Shown here piece after piece: positions 11,480 to 63,661 of a stretch of DNA of 64,000 nt. Source of the stretch: Mobula hypostoma (Eukaryota). Positions within the stretch are counted from its first letter, which is position 1; every line of letters begins with the position of its first letter. The position numbers and the translations under genes are program-made. Under the pieces are notes generated by a model. The model was given only the letters and a program-made list of their open reading frames with translations, had not been told where the DNA came from and did no database searches. The stretch lies in NCBI RefSeq assembly GCF_963921235.1, contig NC_086097.1, positions 3,968,001-4,032,000 of the forward strand. Direction: 5' to 3'.

Positions 11480-14215
11480 CTGAAGAGGTAGTAATGGGGG
11501 ACAGAGAAATGGCAGATTAACTTAATTGGTTCTTTGCATCTGTCAGTTAGCCTAACCTCAGTGGTTGGGAAAGTGTTGGGAGTCGATTATTAAGGATGAG
11601 GTTTTCGGGGTACTTGGAGACTAATGATAAAATAAAGTCAGCGTGGTTTCTATGAAGGGAAATCTTGCCTGACAAACCTGTTAGAGATCTTCGAAGAAGT
11701 AACAAGCAGGGTGGACAAAGGAGAGGCAATGGATGTCATTTTAGAAACATAGAAAACCTACAGCACAAACAGGCCCTTTGGCCCACAATGTTGTGCCAAA
11801 CATGTACTTACTTTAGAAATTACCTAGGGTTACCCAGAGCCCTCTATTTTTCTAAGCTCCATGTACCTATCCAGGAGCCTCTTAAAAGACCCTATCATAT
11901 CCACCTCCACCAGTCACCAGCAGCCCATTCCATGCACTCACCACTCTGCGTAAAAAGCTACCCAACATCCCCTCTGTACCTACTTCCAAGCACCTTAAAA
12001 CTGTGCCCTCTCATGTAAGTCATTTCAGCCATGGGGAAAAGCCTCTGACTATCCCCACAATCAATGCCTCTCATCATCTTATACACCTCTATCAGGTCAC
12101 CTCTCATCCTCCGTCGCTCCAAGGAGAAAAGGCTGAGTTCACTCAACCTTTTCTCATAAGGCATGCTCCCCAATCCAGACAACATACTTGTACACCTCCT
12201 CTGCACCCTTTCTATGGTTTCCACATCCTTCTTGAGGTAAGATGACCAGAATTGAGCACAGTACTCCAAGTGGGGTCTGACCAGGGTTCTATACAGTCAT
12301 AACATTACCTCTTGGCTCTTAAACTCAATCCCACAGTTGATGAAGGCCAATGCACTGTATGCCTTCTTAACCACAGAGTCAACCTGCGCTGCAGCTTTGA
12401 GTGTCCTATGGGCTCGGGCCCCAAGATCCCTCTGATCCTCCACACAACCCAGAGTCTTACCATTAACACTATATTCTGCCATCATATTTGACCTACTAAA
12501 ATGAACCACTTCACACTTATCTGGGTTGAACTCCATTTGCCACTTCTCAGCCCAGTTTTGCATCCTATCAATGTTCCACTGTAACCTCTGACAGCCCTCC
12601 AAACTATCCACAACACCCCCAACCTTTGTGTCATCAGCAAATTTACTAACCCATCCCTCCACTTCCTCATCCAGGTCATTTTTATAAATCACAAAGAGAA
12701 GGGGTCCCAGAACAGACTCTGAGGCACACCACTGGTCACCAAACTCCATACAGAATATGACCCATCTACAACCACTCTTTGCCTTCTGTGGGCAAGCCAA
12801 TTCCGGATCAATTTTCTTGGATTTTCAGAAGGCATTGGGTAGGGTGCCACACACAAGGCTGCTTAACAAGATAAAAATCCTATCCTATAGCATTACAGGA
12901 AAGATACTGGCATGGGTAGTGGAATGGCTGACAGGAAAGAGGCTGTGAATGGGAATAAAGGGGCCTTTTCTTGTTGGCTGCTGGTGACCAGTGGTGTTCC
13001 TCAGGGGTCAGTATTGGGACTGCTGCTTTTCACATTGTTTGTCAGTGATTTAGATAATGGGATTGATGGCTTTGTGGCAAAGTTTGCGTATGATATGAAG
13101 ATAGGTGGAGGGGTAGGTAGTGCTGAGGATGCAATGCAATTGCTGCAGGACTCAGACAAATTGGAAGATTGGGCAAAAAAGTGGCAGATGGAATAGTCAC
13201 CAGGAAATCTGCAGGTGCTGGAAATTCAAGCAACACACACAAAAAATGCTGGTGAACGCAACAGGCCAGGCAGCATCTATGGGAAGAGGCACAGTCGACG
13301 TTTCAGGCCAAGACCCGGAAACATCGACTGTACCTCTTCCTATAGGTGCTGCCTGGCCTGCTGCGTTCACCAGCATTTTTTGTGTGTGTTGTTAGATGGA
13401 ATACAGAGTTGGGAATGTATGATAATGCATTTTGGTAAAAGGAACAATAGTGTGGACTATTATTTAAATGCGGAAAAGGTTCAAACATCAGAGGTGTGGA
13501 GGGACTGAGTAGTCCTCGTACAAGACTCCCATAAGGTTATCTACAGGTTGAGTCCGTGGTAAAGAAGGCAAACGCAATGTTGGCATTTATTTCAAAGGGA
13601 ATAGAATATAAAGCAAGGAGATAATACTAAGCCTTTATAAGACACTAGTCAGGCTGCACTTGTCAACAGTATTGTCAACAATTTTGGGCCCCATATCTCA
13701 GAAAGGATGTGTTGTCATTGGAGAGTGTCCAGAGGAGGTTCACGAGGATGATTCTGGGAATGAAGGGGTTAACATACGAAGAGCATTTGGCAGCTTTGGG
13801 CCTGTACTCGCTAAAATTTAGAAGAATGCGGGGGATCTCACGGAAACCTACCGAATGTTGAAAGGACTAAATAGGGTGGATGTCGACAGGATGTTTCTTA
13901 CGGTGTGGGTATCCAGAACTAGAGGGCACAGCCTCAAAACTGAGGGTTGACTGTTAGAACAGCGGTATGGAGGAATTATTTTCGCCAGAGCAGTAAATCT
14001 GTGGAATGCTCTGCCACAGACTGCAGTGGAGGCCAAGTCCATGTGTTTATTTAAAGTGGAAGTTGATCGATTCCTGATTAGTCAGGGCATCAAAGGATAT
14101 GGCGAGAAGGCAGGTGGATGGGGTTGAGTGGGATCTGGGCTCAGCCATGATGGAATAGCGCAGCAACTCGATGGATTGAATGGCCTAATTCTGCCCCTAT
14201 GTCTTATGGTCTTAA
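11480..14215 (+). mobile_element. Decayed CR1 LINE containing an antisense CR1 (about 11742-12808) and a Penelope-derived insert
   Basis: GVPQGSVLG..FAYD on the plus strand; the outer sequence 'ggatgtcattt...ttggattttcagaaggc' is split by the insert; the inner copy has KFADDTK on the minus strand. Confidence 0.85.
13196..13393. mobile_element. Penelope-derived short insertion, two head-to-head terminal-repeat copies
   Basis: Internal inverted repeat; TSD AGATGGAATA at 13186-13195 and 13394-13403. Confidence 0.8.
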
Positions 14216-16716
14216 GGTAATCTTTATTTTTGTTTTGTTCCCAGATTCCAGCATCTTTAAAATCATGATTATAATGTTTCAAGATTTTCATCTTCTTTGC
14301 TTTCTGACATATTAACATACTAGTCTTGGAATACTATATTGTTACAGATACCATCCTTTGACACCTTATTGTCCTGTTTCCTAAGGCATAAAAGATCCTG
14401 GCAAACAGTTACCCACCCAATGTCACAAATCAAATTATGCTGATATATCTCAGTTTTATTTGCAAAATGTGACTGAAAACTTAGATTTATTGCAATCGCA
14501 AATAGTGGAGCGGGGGTGAAAATAAATGATGTCAAAAGTTCATGCAAAGTCACAAACAGAAGGGTTGTGTGTGGTGGCAATAATCTTCTGAGGTGTGTCT
14601 ATTTCAATGCAAGGAGTATTGTGGGGAAGGCTGACGAGCTGAGGGCGTGGATTGACACATGGAATTACGACATTCTAGCCATTAGTGAAACTTAGCTACA
14701 GGAGGGGCAGGACTGGCAGCTTAATGTTCCAGGGTTCCGATGTTTCAGACGTGATAGAGGCAGAGCAATGAGGGATGGGGGGGGGGGGGGTGGCATTGCT
14801 AGTCAGGGAAAATATTACAGCAGTGCTCAGGCAGGACAGATCAGAGGGCTTGTCTACCAAGGCCATATGAATGGAACTGAGAAACAGGAAAGATACGACC
14901 ACATTAATGGGGTTGTATTATACACCACCCAACAGTCAGAGAGAATTGGAGGAGCAAATCTGCAGAGAGATAGCAGACAACTGCCTGAAACATAAAGTTG
15001 TGATAGTAGGGGATTTTAATTTTCCACATATTGATTTGAGACTCCCATACTGTTAAAGGTCTAGATGGGTTAGAGTTTGTGAAATGTGTTCAGGAAAGTT
15101 TTCTAAATAGAGGTACCAACTAGAGGGGATGCAATATTAGATCTTCTATTAGGAAATGAGTTAGGACAGGTTACAGAAGTGTGTGTTGGGGAACACTTTG
15201 GTTCCAGTGACCATAACACCATTAGTTTCAACTTGATCATGGATAAAGACAGATCTGGTCCTCGGGTTGAGGTTCTAAACTGAAAAAAGGCCAGATTTGA
15301 AGAAATGAGAAAGGATCTAAAAAGCGTGGATTGGAACAGGTTGTTCTCTGGCAAGGATGTGATTCGTAAGTGGGAGGCCTTCAAAGGAGAAATTTTGAGA
15401 GTGCAGAGTTTGTATGTTCCTGTCAGGATTAAAGGCAAAGTGAATACGAATAAGGAACCTTAGTTCGCAAGGGATACTGGAACTCTGATATAAAAAAGAG
15501 AAATGAATGACATGTATAGGAAACAGGGCAAATAAGGTGCTTGAGGAGTATAAAAAGTGCCAAAAAAACTTAAGGAGGAAATCAGGAGGGCTAAAAGACA
15601 TGAGGTTGCTTTGGCAGTCAAGGTGAAGGATAATTCAAAGAGCTTCTACAGGTATATTAAGAGCAAAAGGATAGTAAAGGATAAAATTGGTCCTCTTGAA
15701 GATCAGAGTGGTCGGCTATGTAAGGAACCAAAAGAAATGGAGATCTTAAATGGGTTCTTTACATCTGTATTTACTAAGGAAACTGGCATGGAGTCAATGG
15801 AAATAAGGCAAACAAGTAGTGAGGTCATGGAACCTATACAAATTGAGGAGGAGGAGGTGCTTGCTATCTTGAGGCAAATCAGAGTAGATAAATCCCTAGG
15901 ACCTGACAGGGTATTCCCTTGGACCTTCAAGGAGACTAGTGTTGAAATTGCAGGGGCCCTGGCAGATATATTTAGAACGTCGGTATCTACGGGTGAAGTG
16001 CCGGAGGATTGGAGGATAGATCATGTTGTTCTGTTGTTTAAAAAAGGCTGTAAAAGTAACCCGGGAAATTATAGGCCGGTAAGTTTGACGTCGGTAGTAG
16101 GTAAATTATTGGAAGGACTACTAAGAGATAGGATCTACAAGTATTTCGATAGACAGGGACTTATTAGGGAGGGTCAACATGGCTTTGTGCGTGGTAGGTC
16201 ATGTTTCACCAATCTGTTAGAGTTTTTTGAGGAGGTTACCAGGAAAGTGGATGAAGGGAAGGCAGTGGATGTTGTCTATATGGACTTCAGTAAGGCCTCT
16301 GACAAGGTTCCGCATGGGAGGTTAGTTAGGAAGATTCAGTCACTAGGTATACATGGAGAGGTAGCAAATTGGATTAGACATTGGCTCAATGGAAGAAGCC
16401 AGAGAGTGGTAATGGAGGATTGCTTCTCAGAGTGGAGGCCTGTGACTAGTGGTGTGCCACAGGGATCAGTGCTGGGTCCATTGTTATTTGTCATCTATAT
16501 CAATGATCTGGACGATAATGTGGTAAATTGGATCAGCAAATTTGCTGATGATACAAAGATTGGAGGTGTAGTGGACAGTGAGGAAGGTTTTCAAAGCTTG
16601 CAGAGGGATTTGGACCAGCTGGAAAAGTGGGCTGAAAAATGGCAGATGGAGTTTAATACGGACAAGTGTCAGGTATTGCACTTTGGAAGGACAAACCAAG
16701 GTAGAACATACAAGGT

Positions 16717-16932
16717 CAAACACAAGGAAATCTGCAGATGCTGGAAATTCAAGTAACACATATTAAAAAATGCTGGTGAACGCAGCAGGCCAGGCAGTAT
16801 CTATAGGAAGAGGTACAGTCGACGTTTCGGGCCGAGACCCTTCGTCAGGACTAACTCTCGGCCCGAAACGTCGACTGTACCTCTTCCTATAGCTGTTGCC
16901 TGGCCTGTTGCATTCACCAGCATTTTTTATGT
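16717..16932. mobile_element. Penelope-derived short insertion, two head-to-head terminal-repeat copies
   Basis: Inverted repeat; 16-bp TSD GTAGAACATACARGGT at 16701-16716 and 16933-16948. Confidence 0.85.
16817..16852 (-). ncRNA. Minimal type I hammerhead ribozyme motif
   Basis: Minus strand reads AGTC CTGACGA A GGGT CTCG GCCC GAAA CG TC GACT: core boxes, stem I AGUC/GACU, stem II, palindromic stem III and a GUC triplet. Confidence 0.8.
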
Positions 16933-18225
16933 GTAGAACATACAGGGTTAATGGTAGGGCACTGAGGAGTGCAGTGGAACAGAGGGATCTAGGAATATAG
17001 ATACAAAATTATCTAAAAGTGTCCTCACAGGTAGATAGGATCGCAAAGAGAGCTTTTGGTACATTAGCCTTTATAAATCAAAGTATTGAGTATGAGTTGG
17101 AATGTTATGGTGAGGTTGTACAAGGCATTGGTGAGGCCGAATTTGGAGTATTGTGTTCAGTTTTGGTCACCAAATTACAGGAAGGATATAAATAAGGTTG
17201 AAAGAGTGCAGAGAAGGTTTACAAGGATGTTGCCGGGACTTGAGAAACTCAGTTACAGAGAAAAGTTGAATAGGTTAGGACTTTATTCCCTGGAGCGTAG
17301 AAGAATGAGGGGAGATTTGAAAGAGGTATATAAAATTATGATGGGTATAGATAGAGTGAATGCAAGCAGGCTTTTCCCACTGAGGCAAGGGGAGAAAAAA
17401 ACCAGAGGACATGGGTTAAGGGTGAATGGGGAAAAGTTTAAATGGAACATTGGGGAGGGGTCTTCACACAGAGAGTGGTGGGAGTGTGGAATGAGCTGCC
17501 AGATGAAGTGGTAAATGTGAGCTCACTTTTAACATTTATGAAAAACTTGGACAGGTACGTGGATGAGAGGTGAATGGAGGGATACGGTCCAGGTGCAGGT
17601 CAGTGGGACTAGGCAGATGAATGGTTCGGCACAGCCAAGAAGGGCCAAAAGGCCTGTTTCTGTGCTGTAATGTTCTATGGTTCCAATAGAAACATGATGA
17701 ATTGGTTGTGTAACATTTCAAGATACTCTAAAATTGTGGAAAAACAAATATTAATAAAAGTTCCTACTTTCAAGATGCAAGATTGTTTAATGCGATTTCA
17801 AGTAGATAACTGTTTTGTTCTTTTTGTACAATTGTTACTCTGGATCAGATGCGGCACAAACAAGAACACAAAAGATAACACAATAATAAACACAATGAAT
17901 GTAAATGCAAAAGACAGTTTATATCCATAGACTAATTGTACATCCATAAAGTGACACTAAGCACGGGAGTGTCTGTATAAGGTGACTGACTGGAAATAAT
18001 TAAGTAGTGGTGGTTGGGGATATGAAGGGGAGGGTTAGTAGGTGGAGGTGTTGATCAGTCTTACTGTTCGGGGAAAGTAACTGTTTTTGAGTCTGATGGT
18101 CCTGACATGGATGCTGCACAGCCTCCTCCTTGATGGGAGTGAGTTCAACCATCATTTAATCAGTTACAAGTGTTATTTGATGATGCATCATTACCATTTC
18201 AACATGTTCAGAATGACCACCTCAC

Positions 18226-24222: not shown

Positions 24223-25871
24223 CACTTGCAAGAAAAAAATTGTGAATTCTTTGCAATTATCTGGTTTTCTGCATTAATTACTCATAAAATGTGGTCCGAT
24301 CTTCACCTAAGTCACAATAATAGACAAACACAATATGCTTAAACTAATAACACACTTCTCGTCAATACTGAGTACACAATTTAAACAACCATAGTCTAGG
24401 TTCAAGAAAGTACGTGAACCTCTAGTATAATGCTTTCTACAAAAGCTATTTGGAGTCAGGTCTTCAATCAATGAGATGAGATTGGAAGTGTGGGTTGTAG
24501 AGGTGCCCTGCCCTATATTAAAAAAGACACACAAAGCCAGGTTACTGACAGAGCCTGCTCTCCTCGAGAAAGATCTGTTTATGTGCACCATGCCTTGATC
24601 AAAACAACTTTCAGAGGACCTTAGAAGAATTGTAAAGATGCATGAAGCTGGAAAAGACCTGCGTGTTCATCAGTCCACAGTAAGAAAAATTGTCTTCAAA
24701 TGCAAGAAATTCAATACTGTTGCTACTCTCCATAAGAGTGGGTATCCTGCAAATGTCACACCAGAGCACAATGTGCAATGCTAAAGGAGATGAAAAAAAA
24801 ACATAATAAACGTAAGGGTAACAGCAGAAGACCTGCAGCATTCTCTAGAACTTGCTGAAGTCTCTGTTCATGTGTCCACTATAAGAAAAACACTGAATGA
24901 GAATGGTGTTCATGGAAGGACACCACAGAGGAAACCACAACTCTCCAAAAAAAAAACACTGCTGCATGTCTTAGGTTTGTGGATGATCCACAACACTTTT
25001 GGGACAACGTTCTGTGGACAGATGAGACAAAGTTCAGCTTTTTGGCAGAAATGCCATGCTATGTTTGGAGGAAGAATTCAACTGCACACCAACACCAAAA
25101 CCTCATCCGAACTGTGAAGCACGGTAGAAGGAGGATCGTGGTTTGGGGCTGCTTTGCTCCCTCAGGGCCCGGACAGTTTGTAGTAAGTGAGGGAACAATG
25201 AATTCAACATTGTATCAAGACATTTTACAGGAGAATGTTAGGGTAGCAGTCCATCACCTGAAGCTTAATACAATTTGGATGATGCAACAGGACAATGATC
25301 CAAAATAGAAGAGAACAATAGAATAGTATAAAAAGAAGAAAGCAACACACATCAAAGTTGCTGGTGAACACAGCAGGCCAGGCAGCATCTGTAGGAAGAG
25401 GTACAGTCGACGTTTCAGGCCGAGACCCTTCGTCTATCCTGACATGTTCGCATAAAAAGAAGAAATTCAGGTTTCGGAATGGCCAAGTCAGTCCAGGCTT
25501 TAACCCAATTGAGATGCTGTGACATGACCTGAAGAGGGCTGTTCATGCAAGGTATTCCTGAAATATTGATGAACTAAAACAGTTTTCAATGGTGGAATGG
25601 TCTAAAATTACACCAAGCCAATGTGCAGGACTGATCAACAGTTACCAGAAATGTTTAGCTGTTATTGCTAAAAGAGGTTCTAACATTTATTAAATACATG
25701 TATTCACATAGTTTTTCCAGCCTGGACTGTGAATGATTAAACAATGTGTTGAATAAAGACATGAAAAGTACAATTGTTTACATGATAATTAGTATATGCA
25801 GATTGTGTTTGTCTATTATTGTGATTTAAATGAAGATCAGACCACATTTTATGAGTAATTAATGCAGAAAA
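24223..25871 (+). mobile_element. Second Tc1-family transposon, decayed
   Basis: TIR TTTTCTGCATTAATTACTCATAAAATGTGGTC.GATCTTCA mirrored at 25830-25871; DDE motifs WTDETK, QQDNDPK and NPIEML. Confidence 0.88.
25342..25451 (-). mobile_element. Penelope-derived short insertion inside the Tc1
   Basis: Same terminal repeat; 14-bp TSD ATAAAAAGAAGAAA at 25328-25341 and 25452-25465. Confidence 0.8.
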
Positions 25872-32391: not shown

Positions 32392-35300
32392 TTACATTAA
32401 ATGAAAATATCGAATAAAAGGTCCCCAAATCTGTTCAAATTTAAATGAAGAATCATAAAGGTTACTTCTAATTTTCTCCAGATTCAAACATAAGATCGTC
32501 TGAGAAAACCAAAAAAAGGTAGTTGGAGCATTAAGCTCTTTCCAATGTTGTAAAATACATCTTTTCGCCATTAAAGTAAGAAATGCAATCATTCTACGGG
32601 CTGAAGGGGAAAGATTACTAGAAATTTTAGGTAGTCCAAAGATAGCAGTAATAGGGTGAGGAGAGATATCTATATTTAATACCTTAGAAATAATATTGAA
32701 AATATCTCTCCAAAAAGTTTCCAAAGTAGGGCAAGACCAAAACATATGAGTTAAAGAGGCTATCTGCCCCGAACATCTATCACAGAAAGGATTAATATGC
32801 GAGTAAAAACGCGCTAACTTATCTTTGGACATATGTGCTCTATGAACCACTTTAAATTGAATTAGGGAATGTTTAGCACAAATAGAGGAAGTATTAACTA
32901 ATTGTAAAATCTGCCCCCAATCATCCACAGAAATGGTAAGCCCCAATTCCTGTTCCCAATCTACCCTAATCTTATCAAATGGAGCTTTCCTAAGTTTCAT
33001 AATAATATTATAAATCATAGCCGATGCACCTTTCTGACATGGATTAAGGTTAATTATCGAATCTAAAATATATATAGGAGGAAGCATTGGAAAGGAAGAA
33101 AGTATAGTACTTAGGAAATTTCTAACTTGTAAATATCTAAAAAAATGTATTCTTGATAAGTTATATTTATTAGATAATTGTTCAAAAGACATAAGGGAAC
33201 CATCTAAAAATAAATCCAAAAACCGTAAAATACCCTTAGTCTTCCAAGTTTGAAAAGCGCGATCCGTAAAAGAGGGAGGAAAAAATATGTTACCTAAAAT
33301 AGGAATCGCTAACCCGAATTGATTAAGATCAAAAAATTTTCTGAATTGAAACCAAATACGCAAAGCATATTTAACAATCGGGTTAGAGACCTGCTTAAGG
33401 CGTTTCGAATCAAAAGGAAGAGATGAACCTAAAATAGAACCAAGTGTATAACCCTGAACAGATTGTAATTCCAATGCTACCCATTTAGGAATAGATAGTA
33501 TGTCCCGGTCAAGTAACCAAAATTTCATATGTCGAATATTAATAGCCCAATAATAAAATCTAAAGTTAGGTAATGCTAAACCTCCATCTCTCTTAGCTTT
33601 CTGTAAATGTATTTTACCCAGTCTCGGATTCTTATTCTGCCAAATAAATGAAGAAATTTTAGAGTCGACTTTATCAAAAAAAGATTTAGGAACAAAAATT
33701 GGTAATGCCTGAAACACATATAAAAATTTTGGCAAAAAAAACATCTTAACTGCATTAATACGACCAATCAAAGTTAAATATAAGGGAAACCATTTAGATG
33801 AAAGTTGAGTATTATGGTCTATTAATGGTAAAAAGTTAGTCTTAAATAAATCTTTATGTTTACAAGTAATTTTAATCCCAAGATATGAAAGATAATTATT
33901 AATCAATTTAAATGGAAATTTATAATATAAGGGAAGATGTTTATTAATCGGAAAAAGTTCACTCTTACTAAGATTTAATTTATAACCCGAGAAAAGACCA
34001 AATTGTGCTAATAACTCTAAAACAGCAGGAATAGATCTCTCAGGATTAGAAATATATAAAAGTAAATCATCAGCATAGAGTGATAATTTATGGGACTTTA
34101 ATCCCCGAGTTATCCCAGTAATATTTGAAGATTCTCGAATAGCAATTGCAAGAGGTTCTACTGCAATATCAAATAATAGGGGACTAAGAGGACAGCCTTG
34201 TCGAGTACCACGAAAGAGAGGAAAAAAAGGTGAGTTTAAAGAGTTAGTACGAACCGAGGCTACAGGGGAGTGATATAACAGTTTAATCCAGGATATAAAT
34301 TTCAAGCTAAAATTAAACATTTCAAGCACCTTAAATAAATAAGGCCATTCTACTCTATCAAAAGCTTTCTCGGCATCTAAAGAAATAACACACTCAGGAA
34401 CATTTTGTGAGGGAGTATAAACGATATTTAACAATGTACGAATATTATAAAAAGAGTAACGACCTTTAATAAAACCCGTTTGGTCTTCCGAAATAATAGA
34501 AGGAAGTACTTTTTCTAGTCTATTTGCTAATAACTTAGAAAAAACTTTAGAATCAACATTTAATAAAGATATTGGTCTATAAGATGCACATTGAGCAGGG
34601 TCTTTATCCTTCTTTAGTATTAAAGAAATTGATGCTCTATTAAAAGATTCCGGAAGTTTACCAAGTTTCAAAGAAGCCTCAAAAACTTTATAGAGCCAAG
34701 GAATCAATAAAGAGGCAAAACATTTATAAAATTCAACGGTAAACCCATCAGGGCCAGGAGCTTTCCCCAGATTCATAGAAAAAATAACATTCTTAATCTC
34801 ATCCATTGTAATGGAAGTATCTAATAAAGAAGACATATCCTGTGAAATCTGAGGGAAGTCTAACTTATCTAAAAAATCATTCATATATTTAGAATCTCGA
34901 GGAGACTCTGATTGATATAAAGAAGAATAAAAATCACAAAAGGTTTGATTAATCCCCACATGATCCAATGTCAATCGATCATTTTGGTTATAAATCTGAT
35001 TAATTTGAGATTTAACATAATTAGATTTCAATTGATTAGCCAGCAGCTTCCCAATTTTATCACTGTGAACATAAAAATCACTTCTTGTTTTCTTTAATTG
35101 GTTTACAATCGAGGACGAGAGTAGTAAACTGTGTTCCATTTGAAGTTCAGTTCTTTGTTTGTATAGCTCCTCAGAAGGAGCCATAACATATTTCTTATCA
35201 ATTTCTTTAATCTTGTCCACAATTGCCATCTCCTCCTGCTTCTGTTTCTTCCTCAAAGCAACGGAATACGAAATAATCTGACCCCGAATATAGGCTTTAA

Positions 35301-36168
35301 AAGTGTCCCAAAGAGTGTTAACCGAAATATCTTCTGTATGGTTAATTGTAAAAAAAAGCTCAATCTGTTCATTCATAAAATTAACAAAGTCCGAGTCCTG
35401 AAGCAACAGCGAATTAAAACGCCATTGTCTATTGTTTGGTATATTGGCCATAATTTTAATAGAAAGCTTAAGTGGAGCATGATCCGAAATGGTTATAGAA
35501 TCATAATCACATTTAATCACTGAAGGAATGAGACGAGAATCAATAAAAAAATAATCAATTCTTGAATAGGAATGATGAACATGTGAAAAAAAGGAAAAAT
35601 CTTTTTCCTGAGGATGCAGAAAACGCCAAATGTCCGTCGACCCAGAATCAGAAAGGAAAAAATTAATCAAATTTGCAGATTTATTAGGTAAAGTCCGTAA
35701 AGGAGCCGAACGGTCCAAAGCTGGAGATAAACAGGTATTAAGATCTCCGCCCCAAATCAATGAAAACTCGTTCAAATTAGGAAACTGATCAAACAGTGAT
35801 TTATAAAATTCCGGACAATCCATATTAGGAGCATAAACATTAACCAAAACTACTTTTTTATTAAATAGTAAACCACTAACCAATAAAAATCTACCATTCG
35901 GATCAGAGATAATATCCTGTTGTATAAAAGTAACTGAGGAATCTATAAAAATAGAGACGCCTCGAATCTTAGCATTGGAGTTCGAATGAAATTGTTGTCC
36001 CTTCCAGAATTTGAAAAAACGTAGTCTGTCCCCCCTCCGTACATGGGTCTCTTGTAAAAATAAAATTTGTGCTTTAAGTCTCCGGAACACTTTAAAAACT
36101 TTTTTTCTTTTAATAGGATGATTAAGACCATTAGTATTCCAGGAGACAAAATTAATAATAGACTCCAT
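32392..36168 (-). CDS. L1 ORF2p (APE endonuclease, reverse transcriptase, CCHC finger)
   Basis: SWNTNGL, QETH, GGDLN, SDH; KAPGPDG, LDAEKAFD, RQGCPLSP, YADD; CDRC..HMFWSC. Probable start is the ATG at 36168 (MESII); the track extends the ORF to 36222. Confidence 0.95.
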   Translation of the reverse strand: MESIINFVSWNTNGLNHPIKRKKVFKVFRRLKAQILFLQETHVRRGDRLRFFKFWKGQQFHSNSNAKIRGVSIFIDSSVTFIQQDIISDPNGRFLLVSGLLFNKKVVLVNVYAPNMDCPEFYKSLFDQFPNLNEFSLIWGGDLNTCLSPALDRSAPLRTLPNKSANLINFFLSDSGSTDIWRFLHPQEKDFSFFSHVHHSYSRIDYFFIDSRLIPSVIKCDYDSITISDHAPLKLSIKIMANIPNNRQWRFNSLLLQDSDFVNFMNEQIELFFTINHTEDISVNTLWDTFKAYIRGQIISYSVALRKKQKQEEMAIVDKIKEIDKKYVMAPSEELYKQRTELQMEHSLLLSSSIVNQLKKTRSDFYVHSDKIGKLLANQLKSNYVKSQINQIYNQNDRLTLDHVGINQTFCDFYSSLYQSESPRDSKYMNDFLDKLDFPQISQDMSSLLDTSITMDEIKNVIFSMNLGKAPGPDGFTVEFYKCFASLLIPWLYKVFEASLKLGKLPESFNRASISLILKKDKDPAQCASYRPISLLNVDSKVFSKLLANRLEKVLPSIISEDQTGFIKGRYSFYNIRTLLNIVYTPSQNVPECVISLDAEKAFDRVEWPYLFKVLEMFNFSLKFISWIKLLYHSPVASVRTNSLNSPFFPLFRGTRQGCPLSPLLFDIAVEPLAIAIRESSNITGITRGLKSHKLSLYADDLLLYISNPERSIPAVLELLAQFGLFSGYKLNLSKSELFPINKHLPLYYKFPFKLINNYLSYLGIKITCKHKDLFKTNFLPLIDHNTQLSSKWFPLYLTLIGRINAVKMFFLPKFLYVFQALPIFVPKSFFDKVDSKISSFIWQNKNPRLGKIHLQKAKRDGGLALPNFRFYYWAINIRHMKFWLLDRDILSIPKWVALELQSVQGYTLGSILGSSLPFDSKRLKQVSNPIVKYALRIWFQFRKFFDLNQFGLAIPILGNIFFPPSFTDRAFQTWKTKGILRFLDLFLDGSLMSFEQLSNKYNLSRIHFFRYLQVRNFLSTILSSFPMLPPIYILDSIINLNPCQKGASAMIYNIIMKLRKAPFDKIRVDWEQELGLTISVDDWGQILQLVNTSSICAKHSLIQFKVVHRAHMSKDKLARFYSHINPFCDRCSGQIASLTHMFWSCPTLETFWRDIFNIISKVLNIDISPHPITAIFGLPKISSNLSPSARRMIAFLTLMAKRCILQHWKELNAPTTFFWFSQTILCLNLEKIRSNLYDSSFKFEQIWGPFIRYFHLM

Positions 36169-40702: not shown

Positions 40703-41303
40703 AAGCCCAGAGGATGGGCAAGGGGTATATTCAGAGGGACAGAGGGAGAAAAAGGAGAGTGAGAGAAAGAATGAGTGTATAAAAATAAATAACGGATGGG
40801 GTACGAGGGGGAGGTGGGGCATTAGCGGAAGTTAGAGAAGTCGATGTTCATGCCATCAGGTTGGAGGCTACCCAGACGGAATATAAGGTGTTGTTCCTCC
40901 AACCTGAGTGTGGCTTCATCTTTACAGTAGAGGAGGCCGTGGATAGACATGTCAGAATGGGAATGGGATGTGGAATTAAAATGTGTGGCCACTGGGAGAT
41001 CCTGCTTTCTCTGGTGGTGGGTTTCCCCCCCTCCCCCTTTTCCTTCTCCCTGGGCCTCCTGTCCCATGATCCTCTCATATCCCTTTTGCCTATCACCTGT
41101 CCAGCTCTTGGCTCCATCCCTCCCCCTCCTGTCTTCTCCTATCATTTTGGATCTCCCCCTTCCCCTCCCACTTTCAAATCTCTTACTAACTCTTCCTTCA
41201 GTTAGTCCTGACGAAGGGTCTTGGCCTGAAACGTCGACTGTACCTCTTCCTAGAGATGCTGCCTGGCCTGCTGCGTTCCACCAGCAACTTTGATGTGTGT
41301 TGT
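40703..41303. mobile_element. Penelope-like element 3' end with inverted 5' segment (GIY-YIG C-terminus on minus, terminal repeat on plus)
   Basis: PVATHFNSTSHS..DM...RLEEQHLIFRLGSLQPDGMNIDF is a typical PLE GIY-YIG tail and is linked to the hammerhead-bearing repeat. Confidence 0.85.
41204..41239 (+). ncRNA. Minimal type I hammerhead ribozyme motif
   Basis: AGTC CTGACGA A GGGT CTTG GCCT GAAA CG TC GACT; predicted cleavage after C41235. Confidence 0.78.
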
Positions 41304-42123: not shown

Positions 42124-42249
42124 CCAGTCCTGAAGAGGGGTCTCAGCCCAAAACATCAGCTGTTTATTCATTTTTATGGATGGTGCCTGACCTCCAGCAT
42201 TTTGTGAGTGTTGCTCTGGATTTTCAGCATCTGTAGAACCCCTCGTGTT
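42124..42249 (+). mobile_element. Older Penelope terminal-repeat copy with degenerate hammerhead
   Basis: CAGTCCTGAAGAGGGGTCTCAGCCCAAAACATCAGCTG (GAAA mutated) followed by the same tail. Confidence 0.6.
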
Positions 42250-42512
42250 ACTGATGAATAACAGCCGCGTGGTTATACCAGTGTATCACCACATACTATT
42301 GTGTAATTATACGAGTATACTTCCGTCACATTTCTGATGACTACTGCTGGAAATGAAGTCGAAAACCTCAACAGGGTAAAGTGAAACACCGGACAGCCCA
42401 CTGGCTGCTTTCCTCATGGCGATTTCATCAATAATTCCTTTGTAAAAGCATGTGAAGCACAAAGCTCAGTCCACTGCCAAGCACCGTATGTACCCAGCAC
42501 CGTATGTACACA

Positions 42513-42595
42513 GCTTCTTCTTATAACGTTAAATGGCAGTTGGCTGCCCAACATAAAGTGCATTATTGCCACCTACCGAGTTGGAGTATGGAGCA
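42513..42595 (-). mobile_element. Short Nimb/I-clade 3' end
   Basis: Reverse complement ATACTCCAACTCGGTAGGTGGCAATAATGCAC...AGAAGAAG is homologous to 7455-7535. Confidence 0.6.
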
Positions 42596-42654
42596 AAGAG
42601 ACAGGAAGAGAGGGACCCCAGGTGGTGGGGTGGAGGTAAGAGGGAGGGACAGTG

Positions 42655-43310
42655 TCCTTGGTGTCCACATTTCCAATGAGCTCACTTGGTCCCTGAACTC
42701 CTCCATCCTGATCAAAAAGGCGCAACAGCACCTTTATTTCCTGCGGAGCATGAAGAAAGCTCACCTCTGTCCCAGGATACTGACGGACTCTTACCGCTGT
42801 ACCATTGAGAGCATGCTCACCAACTGCATCTCAGTGTGGTATGGCAATTGTCCCGTATCAGACTGCAAAACACTCCAGCGTGTGGTGAAAACTGCCCAGC
42901 GAATTATTGGCACCCAATTGCCCACCATTGAGAACATCTACCATAAACGCTGCCTGGGCAGGGCGAAAAGCATTATCAAGGATACATCTCACCCTAACCA
43001 TGGACTTTTTACTCTCCTCCCATCCAGTAGGCGCTACAGGAGACTCCGCTCCCGCACCAGCAGGCACAGGAAGAGCTTCTTCCCTGAGGCTGTGACACTG
43101 CTGAACCTCACATCACAGCGCTAAGCAGTATTGCACCCAGATTGTACTGTCTCAGTACTTTTATACTTGTGTGCTGTAGCACTTCTTTTATTCACAGTTA
43201 TTTTGAAAATAACACTATTCTTTGCATTTCTGGTCAGATGCTAAATGCATTTCATTGGCTTCGTATCTGTACTCGGCACAATGACAATAAAGTTGAATCT
43301 AATCTAATCT
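42655..43310 (+). mobile_element. Rex1/L2-type LINE 3' fragment
   Basis: LGVHISNELTW..KKAQQHLYFLR..WYGN..LQRVV; AATAAA and (AATCT)n tail. Confidence 0.75.
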
Positions 43311-50589: not shown

Positions 50590-52470
50590 AGGAGGTGTGA
50601 GAGGCAAGAACATCACTGGCTTCAATCAGCCGAGCTGTAGAGCCTTGGAATGCAGCCGTGAATAGGCTAAACTAATTCTTAAATAGCTTTAACAATTGTC
50701 CTCCTGTTCACAACCCCCTCAGCATACCAGTCCAGACGACAAGGCACGCAGTGCTCCCTCAGCACCAATACATCTCCTCCTCCCTCCTCCCCCATCCAGT
50801 TCAACACGTGAATGAACAATACAGGCTACCGCTGTCTGCATCCCCTCCTTGCCCTGCACCTCCCATCCACACCTCCCACTTACCAACGGCTATCGTCCCA
50901 ATCTTCATCTCCTCAGAACCCGCCTTACCAGTCATCATGGACTCACCTTCTCTACTGAGCAGGTAGAGTCTCTGGGGCAACTCAGACACGGCAAAGCATT
51001 GGGACCAGATGGTGTGAACTCCAGGGTCCTGAAGGAGTGTGCTGAGCAGCTGTGTGGAGTTCTCCAGCACATTGTCACCCTGACTTTCAGACTGGAAAGG
51101 GTCCCGATTGTGTGGAAAGCATCATGTGTAGTTCCAGTACTCAAGAAGGGACAACAGAAAATCTTAAATGACTACCATCCAGTGGCCCTGACCTTACACA
51201 TCATGAAGACCTGGCTCACCTCCGACTCCTGGTCAGATCAGCCCTCGATCCCCTGCAGTTTGCCTACCAGGAGCACATTGGAGTCGATGATGCTGTCATC
51301 TACCTGCTGAACAGAGCCTATTCCCATTTGGATAAGCAGGGTAGCAATATGAGGATCATGTTTTTTGATTTCGCAAGTGCCTTCGATACCGTACAGCCCT
51401 CATTGCTGGGGAAAAGCTCCATTCAATGCAGGTTGGCACTTCCGTTGTATCGTAGATAATGGACTACCTGACTGGCAGACCAGTTTGTGCAGCTTCAGAG
51501 CTGTGTGTCAGACATGACTATAAGCAGCGCTGGGGCCCCACAGCGCACTGTATCGGCTCCCTTCCTGTTTACCCTGTATACCTCAGACTTTAGATACAAC
51601 ATTGGGTCATGTCATCTGCAGAAATTCTCTGATGACTCAGCAATAGTTGGGTGTATAAAGGGAGGACGGGAGGATGAATACAGGGCCCTGGTGGAGGACT
51701 TTGTCAAATGGTGCAAGCTGAGTCATTTGCAGCTCAACATCAGTACGACAAAGGAAATGGTGATGGACTTTAGGAAGACTAAGCCTGCGCTACTCCCTGT
51801 TACTACTGATGGAGAGGATATTGAGGTGGTGAGGACCTACAAGTACCGGGGGGTGCACCTGGATGACAGACTTGAGTGGAGCACCAACACAGAGGCTGTG
51901 TACAAGAAGGGTCAGAGTTGCCCCTACTTCCTGAGGAGACTGAGGTCCTTTGGAGTATGCAGGCCTCTCCTTCACGTTCTCCCAGTCTGTTTTCACCAGT
52001 ACAATCTTCTATGTGGTGGTGTGCTGGGGCAATGGCATCAACATGGGTGATGCCAACAGGCTCAATAAACCGATTAGAAAGGTAGGCTCTGGTTTTGGAG
52101 TCAAATTTGCCACACTGGAGGCTGTGGTAGAACTAAGGACGCTTCAGAAAATCTTGGCAATTCTGGACAATATTTCACACCCTCTGCAGGTCACCTTGTC
52201 TGACAGAGGTGCACGTTTAGTAATAGACTAAGACAACTGCGCTGTTCCAAAGAGCGATATATGAGGTCATTCTTACCCTCAGTCATTAGGCTCTATAATG
52301 AGTCAACCAATAGCTGGGGAAGGAATGAGCCCCTCCTGTTAGACTGTTTGTGGTAACTTATTTTTTTAATCTTTCTACTTCTCTTCTAATATTTATATAT
52401 CCGTGCACTTGCAATGCTACTGTGACACTAATTTCCTTTGAGATCAATAAAGAATCCATCTATCTATCTA
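50590..52470 (+). mobile_element. Rex1/Babar LINE, decayed
   Basis: KALGPDG..LKECAEQL..NDYHPVALT, GAPQRTV..KFSDDSAIVGCI; (ATCT)n tail. Confidence 0.8.
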
Positions 52471-53345: not shown

Positions 53346-53354
53346 CATTTTTTT

Positions 53355-53735: not shown

Positions 53736-53870
53736 GTCCTGAGGAAGTGTTTCGGCCCAAAACGTCGACTGTTTATTAATTTCCATAGATGCTGCTTGAC
53801 CAGCCGAGTTCCTCCAGCATTTTCTGCGTGTTCCTCTGGATTTCCAGCTTCTGCACAATCTCTCGTGTTT
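53736..53870 (+). mobile_element. Older Penelope terminal-repeat copy with degenerate hammerhead
   Basis: GTCCTGAGGAAGTGTTTCGGCCCAAAACGTCGACTG plus tail. Confidence 0.65.
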
Positions 53871-57340: not shown

Positions 57341-57437
57341 TTACAGTTTATTTTATATCAAATCCTTTTAATAATTACTTATTGCCACCCAGTTATTCCG
57401 TATCAATAACATCTTAAATATCTATTTATATTTTTAG

Positions 57438-60617: not shown

Positions 60618-63493
60618 TAGTCCGCGAGCCAAGACCCCAAATTTGGGCCACTGGTACCATCTGGGGGGAATAATTCTTATAGCGATTTTTGGCAAGGTAT
60701 ACACCCCTAGTGCTAGAGAATATGTGATAGCATTGCAGTGATGGTGGCTTGCATGGTAACCGCCATGCTATAAGAACCATGATCCTATGGTGCTTTGCCT
60801 ATGATAAGATGAATTATGCCAGGTACCTGTCCCCTTACTTTGTTCAGATGATGAACCTCCCAGAGAAGAATCCTTCTCTGTCTGAGGCCTTCAAGACAGG
60901 CCAATTCTCAGTGCAGCTGTCAAGTAACAACCTCTTTGGGCAGATCCCTGTGGACCAGGCTATTGAAGCCACAGTGAACAAAGACACACAGACTCCTGGA
61001 GGCACATCACGGTTCAGCCTGAATGCTGGAGCTATCAAGCTTTACTACGTAACAGCTGAGCACGCAGTGCATTCCTGGGACAGTTAAGGGAGATGGTGCA
61101 AGGCAACAAATCAGAGCTTTGTCACATGGAGCTGCAGCGGCCAAAAATCCAGAAAGATGAGGAAGCAGTTTCAGCAGTGGTTAGCCTCATACATGGTCAA
61201 CCCATTTGCAGAGAAGCAGGACCTCATTAGCATCTCTACGGCAAAGGCAGCCCCCAAGGACATTGCCTCCAACCTGATGAAGGCATATGAGATTGGTGAG
61301 CAATGCTATGCAGCCTTCAAGGATGAGAGACTAGAGGAAGACCCACCAGCAAAGAAATTCCATGACCCAATGAAAACCAAGAAGCTGAAACATTCAGTGA
61401 TATGTGTAAGAAGCAAGAAGTAAAGTCATATGGGAGGGCGATCATCTTGAAAGCAGACAGGTCTTTGTTTGGACGCATCATAGTGATGGCACAAGGGCGC
61501 ACTCTACATATGGAGGATATCCTTTCTCATCCCCTTGGACCATTGCCCTGGGCCTTGTCCACACCAGAAGGATTGCTGAGAAAGACAAATGAAGCTACTT
61601 TAGCCACAACCTTGCAGAAAAATGTAGCAGTAGAAGAGCAACTCCCAGGAAACTCTGCTACAGTGGTTGATGGAATGAACTTGGTCCAATGAGTGAAAGG
61701 TGATCAAGTTCAAGTGCAGTTTGGTGGGACTAGGTGAGAGAAAGCATTTGGCACGGACTAGAAGGGCCTAGAGAGCCTGTTTCTGTGCTGTAATTGTTAT
61801 ATGTTTATATAAATTACTTTCAGAGATGTTGCCACAACAGTTCTGGGTATGGCTCTGAGGGAAGGCAGTCAGAGTAGCAGAATAGAGAGGTCGACTGTAC
61901 CTCTTCCTAGAGATGCTGCCTGGCCTGCTGCGTTCACCAGCAACTTTGATGTGGGTAGCAGAATAGATGTTGTGTTTGACACATACAAGGAGAACTCTAT
62001 TAAGAATAGTGACAGATCTCTACGGGGTGAAGAGACTGGTCATGAGTTGCAAGGTATCACAGGCACACAGATGGTGAGGCAGTGGAGGAGCTTCCTGACC
62101 AAAGTCAGTAACAAAAGTAGTCTCATTAGATTCATAGTCCATGAATGGAGGAAGGCAGAGTACAGAGCAAAGCCACAGGAGAAGATTCTGTATGCAACTG
62201 TGAATGACAAATGTTACAGAATCACATCTCAAGGCAGTGAGGAGGTGTCAGCTCTTCAGTGTCAACACTGTGCCGCCTACTTCTCCATGCTGCCCATGCC
62301 ACGAGAGGGATACCAATCTGTAGTGATCTGCTCAGAAAACACAGATGTCTTTATCATGAATTTAGCATTTTGTGACAAGATTGAGGCCCCATTGTTCCAG
62401 AAGTGTGGCACTAGAACCCGTACAAGGCTTGTAGACATCAGGAAGGTTGCTGCCACTGTTGGCATAGAGGGCTCTCATCGGGTTGCACGCATATACAGGA
62501 TGTGACACTGTAAGCGCTTTTGCAGGCAAAGGGAAGACAAGTGCCCTAAAACTTCTGACCAGCAACAGGGAAACTCAGGACACATTCTTGAAGTTGGGTC
62601 AGGAATGGGACCTCTCCCCAGAACTGATGGACAAATTTTCTGTGCCAAAAAAGGGTGAAATCGAAAGTCATCAACTCCCACCATGCAAAGACTGCTTAAC
62701 AAAACATGCACAGCGAGCCAACTGCCAGGCTGGTATATGGAGAAGATGTTTGGAGAAGGACCCACAAGCGCCAAGCCCTGTTGGCAGAGGATGGAAGATG
62801 GAGAGAGAAGAGGAAGCTGAACAGTTGGTGGTGCACTGGATGGAAGGCCAGCCAGCACCCGATGCCGTCCTGGATCTACTGGCCTGTAACTGTCCAAAAA
62901 AATGTTCCCTCCCAAGATGTATGTGTGTTGCAAATGGCCTCAGGTGTACTGACATGTGTAGACTGGCAGACTGTGAGAACCAGGCATCCACCTCAGAGTG
63001 TGGAAAGTTCAGGCGAAGATGTGGAAGACTTGGAAAATTATTATGATTATTAATAGGTTATGAAAGTATGGAAAACAAAGTATGGAAAGCAGTCTTTGAT
63101 TAAGTATATTCATTTTACAACCAAATGGGGCCTAGGTTATGGCCGTGTGGAACCCCACATTTGTTATTGTACAGTAATTCTACATGCTATGACAAAAGCT
63201 TAAGATTGTTTTGATTTGATACAACAAAATGGAAAATATCATGACATTGATAAAACAGAAATCTCTCCAAATGAGGTGTTTTACCTTTTGGGGGGTGGGG
63301 TAACATTTTCTGCTGTACTGATGTTAATATGGAATATATACGAAAACTGATTACTTATTTGAAGTAATAAAGCTACCACTGGTGCAATGCTATCACATAT
63401 TTTCTAACACTGGAGATGTATACCTTGCCAAAAATCACTATGAGCATTATTCCCCTCAGATGGTACCGACCAACCCTACTGGCTCACGGACTA
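60618..63493 (+). mobile_element. AcademX-type DNA transposon (deleted, frameshifted)
   Basis: About 120-bp imperfect TIRs TAGTCCGYGAGCC...; 3-bp TSD ACA; XPG/FEN1-like motifs VVDGM, DVVFDTY, NTDV, HAYTGCDTVSAFAGKGK; C-terminal Cys cluster CNC..C..C.C..CTDMC..C. Confidence 0.8.
61887..61954 (+). mobile_element. 68-bp Penelope-derived insertion in the Academ ORF
   Basis: 13-bp TSD GTAGCAGAATAGA at 61874-61886 and 61955-61967. Confidence 0.8.
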
Positions 63494-63576
63494 ACAGATG
63501 TAGTTACCACGGAGACTAAGGTCTCTGAGAGTTCCCATATCTTGCACAAAGAAAATACTACAACCTCTGGATTCAT

Positions 63577-63661
63577 GCAACACACATAAAAGTTGCTGGT
63601 GAACGCAGCAGGCCAGGCAGCATCTATTGGAGGAGGTACCGTCGACGTTTCGGGCCGAGAC
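63577..63661 (-). mobile_element. Penelope terminal-repeat fragment
   Basis: GCAACACACATAAAAGTTGCTGGTGAACGCAGC...GTCGACGTTTCGGGCCGAGAC. Confidence 0.75.

What the first reader, a model, noticed from the sequence alone, without database searches (positions are those of the whole stretch)
13196..63661. 5' breakpoints of tiny Penelope insertions cluster inside the ~36-nt ribozyme
Seen: independent 70-220 bp insertions (13196, 16717, 25342, 61887, 63577), four with 10-16 bp TSDs, start or invert within or right beside the hammerhead. Breakpoints are in stem II or GAAA (about 13316, 16856, 63661), in the CUGA core (about 25434) and 3 nt before the cleavage site (about 61890). Older copies at 42124 and 53736 also begin at stem I. 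Inference: the ribozyme, through cleavage or structure, defines the mobilised RNA or stalls RT. This would give a ribozyme-delimited, non-autonomous micro-retroelement family reminiscent of retrozymes.
Basis: partly seen in the sequence, partly recalled or inferred. Interest (0 to 1): 0.72.

Follow-up and report, generated by a model that had tools for sequence, protein, structure and literature searches.

The report
Penelope mini-insertions starting at the hammerhead
Tiny copies of a Penelope-like jumping gene in this cartilaginous-fish genome really do begin, far more often than chance allows, at the outer edge of the element's small self-cutting RNA motif, but the cut site itself plays no visible part and most of the architecture is already known for this class of element.

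Summary
All the listed insertions are there, and four have target-site duplications. The element is a true Penelope-like element (reverse transcriptase plus C-terminal GIY-YIG) with about 68,000 exact tail cores in the 3.5-Gb genome.

- **Position of the ends.** In an unselected sample of 100 tail-bearing arms, 16 of the 65 mapped 5' ends fall in the 8 nt at the outer edge of hammerhead helix I (2.5 to 3.6 expected). In a second sample, 24 of 100 hammerhead-bearing arms end within 7 nt there and 1 in the next 9 nt.
- **Hairpins.** Genome-wide, 10,965 head-to-head pairs peak where both arms stop at that edge, then drop 3.4-fold.
- **Refinement.** The peak lies at the ribozyme's 5' edge. The ribozyme interior is not strongly enriched, and the cleavage site is nearly empty (1 of 65; 1 of 100).
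- **Already in print.** Inverted pairs, the 35-nt "tail" on one side only, and two reverse-transcription start sites are published Penelope traits.
- **Not a separate family.** Hairpin junctions differ between copies, and short copies share variants with long ones. So these are recurrent by-products, not a separate retrozyme-like family.

Best reading (moderate confidence): the copied RNA often begins at the hammerhead edge. Other windows of this scan noted similar short palindromic elements in other shark genomes.

The parts
13196..13393 (.). Head-to-head (hairpin) mini-insertion. The minus arm 13198-13316 reaches the long 3' end. The plus arm 13315-13396 reaches the short 3' end. The junction lies in hammerhead helix II. 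TSD at 13186-13195 and 13394-13403.
   Evidence: listed as C1:3981282-3981340
16717..16934 (.). Head-to-head mini-insertion. The minus arm 16717-16856 holds a whole hammerhead (core 16821-16848) and the long 3' end. The plus arm, about 16857-16934, starts in the helix II loop and reaches the short end. TSD at 16703-16716 and 16935-16948 (1 mismatch). It sits inside a LINE RT ORF (15554-16756).
25341..25451 (-). Single mini-insertion. Element sequence 25340-25434 begins about 3 nt into the CUGANGA box. It is preceded, in element sense, by 17 nt of unexplained filler (25435-25451). TSD at 25328-25340 and 25452-25464.
40800..41302 (+). 41018-41302 is the 3' 285 nt with an intact hammerhead core (41208-41235) and the short 3' end. 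40800-40978 is an inverted piece of the endonuclease-coding part, an inversion-plus-deletion of the twin-priming type.
42126..42249 (+). Old copy of a diverged Penelope family. It begins about 5 nt before AGTCC of helix I. TSD of about 11 bp with 1 mismatch, read from the sequence.
53736..53870 (+). Old copy of another diverged Penelope family. It begins at GGTCC of helix I. No clear TSD.
61887..61954 (+). Single 68-bp mini-insertion that begins about 3-6 nt before the cleavage site. It is the only window case near the cut site. TSD at 61874-61886 and 61955-61967.
63549..63661 (-). Single mini-insertion that begins in helix II (ruler position about 580). No TSD found.

Best explanation
These are pseudo-LTR-only insertions, single or in head-to-head pairs, of a young and very abundant canonical Penelope-like element. 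The copied unit runs from the outer edge of helix I of the element's minimal type I hammerhead to one of two reverse-transcription start sites about 100 or 135 nt downstream.

Shown:
- The element is a Penelope-like element.
- 5' ends pile up in a 5-8 nt window at the helix I edge, in single and in paired insertions alike.
- The cleavage site is not used.
- Paired insertions are made anew each time, and always combine one long and one short 3' end.

Inferred:
- The template RNA often has its 5' end at that edge. This could be a transcription start in the pseudo-LTR (the sequence TTCAGT there fits an initiator) or a processed or protected end.
- The RT enters internally at the nearest start site and runs off the RNA after 100-140 nt.
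- Because the enzyme can cut and extend both target strands, two such cDNAs are often made. They are joined by microhomology or self-priming within the self-complementary hammerhead DNA, which places the second set of breakpoints inside the ribozyme.
For: Penelope identity:
- The 532-aa ORF of a long copy has 608 relatives at E<=1e-10.
- An 806-aa relative at 50% identity has RVT_1 plus a C-terminal GIY-YIG above the Pfam cut-off.

Abundance:
- 67,795 exact 28-nt tail cores, with 0 in the control.

Edge peak:
- 16 of 65 mapped ends lie in 562-569, p = 2e-9.
- 24 of 100 ends lie in 561-567 against 1 of 100 in 552-560.
- 8 of 16 TSD-supported single copies start at 563-568.

Hairpins genome-wide, counted by the gap between the two arms:

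| Gap (nt) | Loci |
|---|---|
| 1-24 | 547 |
| 25-48 | 3,194 |
| 49-72 | 4,931 |
| 73-96 | 1,467 |
| 97-120 | 826 |

The drop comes where both arms would have to pass the edge (2 x 36 nt).

Made anew each time:
- Junctions differ among 30 copies.
- Arms share private variants.

One long plus one short end:
- 25 of 25 determinable pairs show this, against 32 long: 35 short among singles.

Published support:
- Both strands are cut and extended, there are two internal RT start sites with the tail between them, and the RT copies to the RNA 5' end (PMC11167929, main text).
- The transcript start lies in the upstream pseudo-LTR (PMC6765202 passages; PMC2377424 passages).
- Pseudo-LTRs have defined lengths, and palindromes at inverted junctions are read as self-priming (PMC3846280 passages).
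Against: - No RNA 5' end was observed.
- In Drosophila virilis the mapped start is 121 nt upstream of helix I in DNA, not at it (PMC2377424; PMC4209133).
- The ends spread over 561-567 rather than sitting on one base.
- A second, broader cluster at 526-547 (13 of 100 arms) is unexplained.
- Three quarters of hammerhead-bearing arms read through the edge, so longer templates are common.
- I could not reach a full-length copy to see whether its upstream pseudo-LTR starts at the same place.
- The samples hold only young copies (exact words were required). Two of the three come from the first 4.4 Mb of one contig and the third from its first 3.2 Mb.
- The rows were classed by eye.
Confidence: 0.55

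Rival explanations
1. The RT stops or switches template at the edge. The cause would be the hammerhead fold, a protein bound just upstream, or the nascent cDNA folding back on its own hammerhead-like helices. This would be a template boundary, loosely like telomerase.
For: - Copies of three diverged Penelope families in the window start at helix I.
- Ends are spread over 7 nt.
- The commonest single hairpin junction (gap 54) makes up 11 of the 50 loci listed. It recurs on three variant backgrounds and fits a cDNA ending at GTCC that primes on an internal GTC.
- Self-priming has been proposed for Penelope (PMC3846280).
Against: - The RT has already unwound and copied the whole ribozyme when it stops.
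- In vitro, shorter RNA 5' ends give shorter products and hammerhead mutants change nothing (PMC11167929).
- 75 of 100 arms read through.
Confidence: 0.2
2. An independent, self-propagating non-autonomous family (SINE-like or retrozyme-like) that starts with the ribozyme and is moved in trans by Penelope RT.
For: - Penelope promoters can be internal (PMC2377424).
- Pseudo-LTRs suffice in trans (PMC3846280).
- A few retrozyme-like micro-tandems of 59-122-nt hammerhead units exist.
- Vertebrate non-LTR retrozymes are reported as pseudo-LTR derivatives (bioRxiv 10.64898/2026.07.22.740005, results read).
Against: - The variant spectrum (TA/CA/CG at one site, tail types) is alike in long and short copies. 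The numbers are small.
- Hairpin junctions are copy-specific.
- Head-to-tail pairs number 62 matches against 10,965 head-to-head loci.
- Ends are not at the cut site.
Confidence: 0.12
3. Partly an artefact of homology. The hammerhead-plus-tail module is shared by several Penelope subfamilies whose upstream sequences differ. Alignment to one reference then ends at the hammerhead without any truncation.
For: - Contigs from four runs lose likeness to the reference at ruler positions 566 and 603. The loose ends are semi-consistent and pyrimidine-rich (table 7).
- Many ends in 400-547 lack a TSD.
Against: - TSDs abut the ends in at least 8 single copies.
- In paired copies the sequence beyond the end is the other arm.
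Confidence: 0.1
4. Hammerhead self-cleavage makes the 5' end of the mobilised RNA.
For: One window copy (61887) begins 3-6 nt before the cut site.
Against: - 1 of 65 ends lies within 595-601.
- 1 of 100 arms ends at the cut site.
- Published in vitro and RNA-seq data found no use of the cut site (PMC11167929).
Confidence: 0.03

Closest known systems
Canonical endonuclease-bearing Penelope-like elements with pseudo-LTRs, inverted 5'-truncated partners and a one-sided 30-40-bp tail (Arkhipova et al. 2013, PMC3846280; Craig et al. 2021, PMC8557442; Frangieh et al. 2024, PMC11167929)
   Same: - RT plus C-terminal GIY-YIG.
- A minimal hammerhead near the 3' end.
- Heavy 5' truncation.
- Head-to-head pairs with palindromic junctions.
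- Two 3' ends 35 nt apart, with the extension on one side only.
- TSDs of about 10-16 bp.
   Different: - The recurrent unit here is minimal: it starts at the hammerhead's own outer edge.
- Such units, alone or paired and without any internal part, make up about a quarter or more of hammerhead-bearing arms.
- I found no statement of this 5'-end hot spot in the passages I read.
Minimal hammerheads of metazoan Penelope-like elements (Cervera and de la Pena 2014, PMC4209133)
   Same: - Type I motif with a CUGANGA box, a long helix II with an unpaired base before it, GAAA, a palindromic mini helix III and a short helix I.
- Mostly found as single motifs or as pairs on opposite strands 100-700 bp apart.
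- In D. virilis the intron's 3' end maps at the 5' end of helix I. Here a branch-point-like TACTAAC, a pyrimidine tract and AG sit directly before helix I.
   Different: That paper ascribes single motifs to truncated elements without mapping the truncation points. Cleavage was not tested here.
Retrozymes (plant LTR type; animal non-LTR tandem type)
   Same: Short, non-coding, hammerhead-bearing sequences that depend on another element's RT. The animal type is reported as derived from Penelope pseudo-LTRs.
   Different: - Retrozyme units are bounded by the self-cleavage site and lie head to tail, so that two cuts free a unit that is circularised.
- Here the ends are at the opposite side of the ribozyme, copies are single or head to head, and tandems are rare.
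R2, RTE and L1Tc elements that begin with an HDV-like ribozyme
   Same: The element's 5' end coincides with the 5' edge of a self-cleaving ribozyme. In L1Tc the same stretch is also an internal promoter (as summarised in PMC6765202).
   Different: HDV-like ribozymes cut at their own 5' edge, so cleavage explains that boundary. A type I hammerhead cuts near its 3' side, so cleavage cannot explain this one.

Membership tests
Penelope-like element (endonuclease-bearing, canonical) | Single ORF with reverse transcriptase followed by a C-terminal GIY-YIG endonuclease | tested here: met
   - The ORF of a long copy (L063, 532 aa) matches RVT_1 at E = 1.8e-4 and GIY-YIG weakly at residues 435-473.
- Its 806-aa relative P0025 (50% identity, E = 1.9e-155) has RVT_1 plus GIY-YIG at 25 bits, above the 22.6-bit cut-off.
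- The copies in the window itself are too short to hold the ORF, except for the inverted piece at 40800-40978.
Penelope-like element (endonuclease-bearing, canonical) | Inverted or tandem pseudo-LTR arrangements, an optional 30-40-bp tail at one end, and short TSDs | tested here: met
   - 27 of about 95 sampled events are inverted pairs.
- 25 of 25 determinable pairs have one long and one short end, 35 nt apart.
- TSDs are 9-17 bp.
Penelope-like element (endonuclease-bearing, canonical) | Full-length unit of about 3 kb with an upstream pseudo-LTR | tested here: inconclusive
   The longest copies reached are about 1.9-2.1 kb and 5'-truncated, each next to an inverted partner.
Minimal type I hammerhead ribozyme (min-HHR) | Conserved core (CUGANGA ... 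GAAA ... cleavage triplet) with helices I and II and a palindromic mini helix III | tested here: met
   - The pattern has 2 matches in the window against 0.02 expected.
- Helices were read from the sequence.
- 60,767 exact 20-nt 5' halves occur genome-wide.
- Rfam models did not score it.
- The motif rules are partly recalled and partly taken from PMC4209133.
Minimal type I hammerhead ribozyme (min-HHR) | Self-cleavage activity | not testable with these tools
   Published min-HHRs cleave poorly, as dimers or with protein help (PMC4209133; PMC11167929).
Retrozyme | Unit bounded by hammerhead cleavage sites | tested here: not met
   Ends at the cut site: 1 of 65 and 1 of 100.
Retrozyme | Head-to-tail repeats (or LTRs) giving two ribozymes on one transcript | tested here: not met
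   - 62 direct matches with a 95-125-nt gap, against 10,965 inverted loci.
- No direct pair lies within 300 nt among the first 100 tail cores.
- A few micro-tandems elsewhere in the genome do fit.
Retrozyme | Circular RNA | not testable with these tools
   No run on record as RNA; contigs only.

The most novel reading that the evidence does not exclude
The hammerhead marks the true 5' end of the RNA that Penelope RT copies, and the fold itself sets that end. It would do so together with bound RT, either by shielding the RNA from 5'-to-3' decay or by acting as a telomerase-like template boundary. A 100-140-nt 'ribozyme-first' RNA would then be a major template of retrotransposition. That would give Penelope hammerheads a function that does not need cleavage.
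Probability: 0.2. Interest if true: 0.7.

Novelty: new member of a known kind. Interest (0 to 1): 0.42.

Why it matters
What the hammerhead does in Penelope-like elements is an open question. Published work found that cleavage is weak, is dispensable for insertion in vitro, and leaves no trace in RNA reads.

This genome offers tens of thousands of young insertions whose 5' ends point to the ribozyme's outer edge, not to its cut site. That gives a sharp, testable lead: the edge may be a transcription start, a protected RNA end or a template boundary.

The result also has a practical use. Repeat annotators will meet these 70-220-bp palindromic or single fragments in large numbers in cartilaginous-fish genomes, and can file them as pseudo-LTR-only Penelope insertions.

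Tried and rejected
- **Rfam.** The window gave no hammerhead hit at gathering score or at E<=10. Minimal hammerheads without helix III escape these models.
- **Random 10-kb regions.** That sample held too few copies (3) and was replaced by short stretches around pattern matches.
- **One-master hairpin family.** I first read the 40 near-full-length matches to the 16717 hairpin as one family from a master copy. The alignment of 30 of them showed different junctions, so I rejected that reading.
- **RNA evidence.** No RNA holder was listed. The four runs laid are contigs that cannot show starts or ends. A joint skipping 323 nt up to ruler position 566 appeared in one contig each of three runs. It has no GT..AG ends, and I could not interpret it.
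- **Splicing as the source of the ends.** A good 3' splice-site look-alike precedes helix I. However, no shared exon-1 sequence precedes the ends, and almost no ends lie at the branch point (1 of 100 in 552-560).
- **ORF start inside the hammerhead, as in the lizard element.** That frame stops after 32 codons.
- **Full-length copy.** Two further long copies are again truncated next to inverted partners.
- **Pfam on the ORF alone.** Matches were weak. Relatives were needed.
- **Lunse et al. 2016.** The paper is not held. Its supplements and those of the papers I read were not opened and may bear on the claim that the hot spot is unreported.
- **Not-in-print claim.** It rests on searches and on the passages I read, not on whole texts.


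Full report
**What is in the window.** A BLAST of one hammerhead-plus-tail arm against the window finds ten arms (repeated against a 700-nt ruler).

I use one genomic copy, L033:1122-1821, only as a coordinate ruler:
- the hammerhead begins at 562 (AGTTAGTCC);
- the CUGACGA box is 570-576;
- helix II is 578-589;
- GAAAC is 590-594;
- the cut would fall after 597;
- the short 3' end is near 665 and the long 3' end is at 700.

On this ruler the window's young arms start as follows:

| Window copy | Arm starts at (ruler) |
|---|---|
| 16717 hairpin | 562 and about 583 |
| 13196 hairpin | 578 and 587 |
| 25341 | about 572 |
| 63661 | about 580 |
| 61887 | about 592-595 |

A sixth, longer copy (41018-41302) was missed. 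Upstream of it lies an inverted piece of coding sequence (40800-40978).

The two old copies (42126, 53736) belong to diverged families and start at (A/G)GTCC, the 5' strand of helix I. Two intact minimal-hammerhead cores are in the window, against 0.02 expected. Rfam models do not score them.

**What the element is.** The window lies in a 3.48-Gb genome of 200 contigs. Earlier notes of this scan call it a cartilaginous fish, and the best protein relatives are from rays and sharks.

[quoted passage not shown] So this is a canonical endonuclease-bearing Penelope-like element.
- A 28-nt core of its tail occurs 67,795 times exactly, with 0 in the reversed control.
- The ruler's endonuclease frame stays open through a pyrimidine-rich 300 nt, up to a TAG that lies inside the helix I strand.
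- Directly before helix I sit TACTAAC, a pyrimidine tract and AG. This parallels Drosophila virilis, where the Penelope intron ends at the 5' end of helix I (PMC4209133, passages).

**Is the clustering more than chance?** I used three unselected samples and one genome-wide count.

1. **First 100 exact tail cores on contig C1.** I fetched each with 230 nt upstream.
   - 35 arms run past the fetched stretch.
   - Of the 65 mapped 5' ends, 16 fall in 562-569. The expectation is 2.5 if uniform and 3.6 under an exponential length decay (p = 2e-9).
   - 24 fall in 557-574. One lies within 3 nt of the cut site.
   - Among 16 single copies whose ends are fixed by a TSD, 8 start at 563-568.
2. **First 100 arms with an exact 567-586, with 15 nt upstream printed** (classed by eye).
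   - 24 lose likeness within 561-567, 1 at 558, and 75 read on.
   - The first pattern letter excluded G. That slightly under-counts truncated arms.
3. **First 100 arms with an exact 598-617**.
   - 98 read on through 583. One ends at the cut site and one at 587.
4. **Head-to-head pairs counted genome-wide,** by the gap between the two 15-mers that follow the cut site:

| Gap (nt) | Loci |
|---|---|
| 1-24 | 547 |
| 25-48 | 3,194 |
| 49-72 | 4,931 |
| 73-96 | 1,467 |
| 97-120 | 826 |

A smooth decay would fall steadily. Instead the count rises to the bin in which both arms stop at or just inside the ribozyme's 5' edge (2 x 36 = 72), and then drops 3.4-fold.

The refinement is that the hot spot is the outer edge of helix I. 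The interior carries only a modest excess, mostly second arms of pairs. The cut site is almost empty.

**Are the hairpins one family or many events?** The 224-bp hairpin at 16717 has at least 40 near-full-length matches among 2,785 candidates, which at first looked like a master-copy family. Aligning 30 of them shows otherwise:
- The centre differs from copy to copy. One arm mostly ends at or near 562-567. The other starts anywhere from the CUGANGA box to GAAAC.
- Each copy has its own flanks.
- Both arms share copy-private variants.

They are therefore made anew at each insertion. In the unselected sample, 27 of about 95 events are inverted pairs. In 25 of 25 pairs where both 3' ends could be seen, one arm has the long end and the other the short end. 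Two more were cut off by the fetch. Single copies split 32 long: 35 short. Head-to-tail pairs are rare: 62 matches at a 95-125-nt gap.

Short and long copies carry the same variants in similar shares. Long copies have TA 18, CA 6, CG 3. Edge-starting copies have TA 9, CA 6, CG 2. This argues against a separately evolving short lineage, although the numbers are small.

**What is already known.** The following are in print:
- Heavy 5' truncation, an adjacent inverted 5'-truncated copy, and a 30-40-bp tail often at only one end (Craig et al. 2021, PMC8557442, passages).
- Pseudo-LTRs of defined length, a 31-bp tail on one of two inverted pseudo-LTRs, palindromes at the inverted junction read as self-priming, and pseudo-LTRs sufficient in trans (Arkhipova et al. 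2013, PMC3846280, passages).
- Cleavage and extension of both target strands, two adjacent internal RT start sites with the tail between them, no effect of hammerhead mutants on insertion, and no RNA reads at the cut site (Frangieh et al. 2024, PMC11167929, main text).
- Minimal hammerheads found mostly singly or as opposite-strand pairs 100-700 bp apart, ascribed to truncated elements (Cervera and de la Pena 2014, PMC4209133, passages).
- Vertebrate non-LTR retrozymes as pseudo-LTR derivatives (bioRxiv 10.64898/2026.07.22.740005, results).

In these passages, and in the listings of searches, I found no statement that 5' ends pile up at the hammerhead's outer edge. I did not read whole texts or supplements, and Lunse et al. 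2016 is not held.

**How it most likely works.**

*Shown:* the ends; the non-use of the cut site; recurrent formation of pairs; the long-plus-short rule.

*Inferred:*
- The lizard RT copies to the RNA's 5' end in vitro whatever the hammerhead's state. By the time the enzyme reaches the edge it has already copied the whole fold. The simplest reading is therefore that many templates begin there.
- The sequence TTCAGT at 559-564 fits an initiator, with A at 562. That motif rule is recalled, not tested. Penelope transcripts are known to start inside the pseudo-LTR (PMC6765202, PMC2377424).
- An RT that enters internally at the nearest start site would then make a 100-140-nt cDNA.
- With both target strands extended, two like-sense cDNAs must be joined. 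The hammerhead DNA is rich in self-complementary stretches. The commonest junction (gap 54) makes up 11 of the 50 loci listed, recurs on three variant backgrounds, and fits a cDNA ending at GTCC that pairs its last three bases with an internal GTC.

I put this reading at about 0.55. The rivals are:
- a structure- or protein-set stop (0.2);
- a self-propagating short family (0.12);
- a homology artefact from diverged subfamilies (0.1). This surely contributes upstream of 557, where contigs of four runs lose likeness at ruler 566 and 603 with semi-consistent loose ends;
- self-cleavage (0.03).

**Limits.**
- The samples need exact words, so they hold young copies only.
- Two of the samples come from the first 4.4 Mb of one contig and the third from its first 3.2 Mb.
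- BLAST ends can run a few bases too far in palindromes.
- The rows were classed by eye.
- No RNA data with ends were available.
- No full-length copy was reached.
- A second cluster of ends at 526-547 (13 of 100 arms) is unexplained.

**Verdict.** The element is a new member of a known kind. The edge hot spot is the part worth a specialist's attention.

Noticed in passing
window 40800-41302; also G000:C67:41352223-41352763: A Penelope copy whose 5' part is an inverted piece of the endonuclease-coding region, followed after about 40 nt by the direct 3' 285 nt. This is an inversion-with-deletion like the twin-primed L1 inversions. A second locus has the same arrangement at 90% identity.
   Followed up: partly
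ruler positions 526-547 of L033:1122-1821 (window equivalent about 41164-41185): A second, broader cluster of 5' ends (13 of 100 arms) lies 20-40 nt upstream of the hammerhead. Many hairpins are centred there: the 97-120 gap class often has GGGATCCC-like centres. Most of these ends lack a detectable TSD.
   Followed up: partly
window 41185-41205 (ruler 547-567): TACTAAC, a pyrimidine tract and AG lie directly before helix I. They look like a 3' splice site, as reported for the D. virilis Penelope intron. The endonuclease reading frame also stays open through 300 pyrimidine-rich nt, up to a TAG inside the helix I strand.
   Followed up: partly
G000:C50:67866282-67866730; C63:13592797-13593177; C91:20265584-20265799; C36:13603943-13604134: Rare head-to-tail micro-arrays of 59-122-nt units, each holding a whole hammerhead plus about 25-30 nt of tail. 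These look like animal non-LTR retrozymes derived from this element. In the C50 array the unit joint is again at AGTCC.
   Followed up: no
genome-wide, e.g. G000:C1:15897481-15897564, 25644552-25644635, 28869842-28869925: One hairpin centre (gap of 54 nt, ...CCCTTCGTCCTGACGAAGGG...) recurs in 11 of the 50 loci listed for the 49-72 class. It appears on three different variant backgrounds, so it is a favoured junction and not one amplified copy.
   Followed up: partly
L071 (G000:C1:170368-170700) and L126 (C1:2960739-2961071): Two sampled mini-insertions have the same 60-nt upstream flank. The insertion therefore lies inside a larger repeated unit, and the two are not independent events.
   Followed up: no
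window 32392-37809 (minus strand): A long L1-type LINE. A 1,306-aa ORF has endonuclease, RT and zf-RVT matches, and an upstream ORF has an L1 ORF1-type RNA-binding domain. Several other RT fragments are also present (2611-3699, 12297-12824, 15554-16756), and there is an RNase H ORF at 8131-8697.
   Followed up: no
window 42456-43124 and 51472-52050: Two ORFs match the short Pfam family ALKBH8_N (E = 7e-15 and 1e-6) inside what looks like repeat sequence.
   Followed up: no
L062:5190-5514 (ruler 242-566): One contig in each of three sequencing runs joins ruler position 242 (the end of the endonuclease domain) to 566 (helix I), skipping the 323-nt pyrimidine-rich stretch. The skipped part does not have GT..AG ends.
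   Followed up: no
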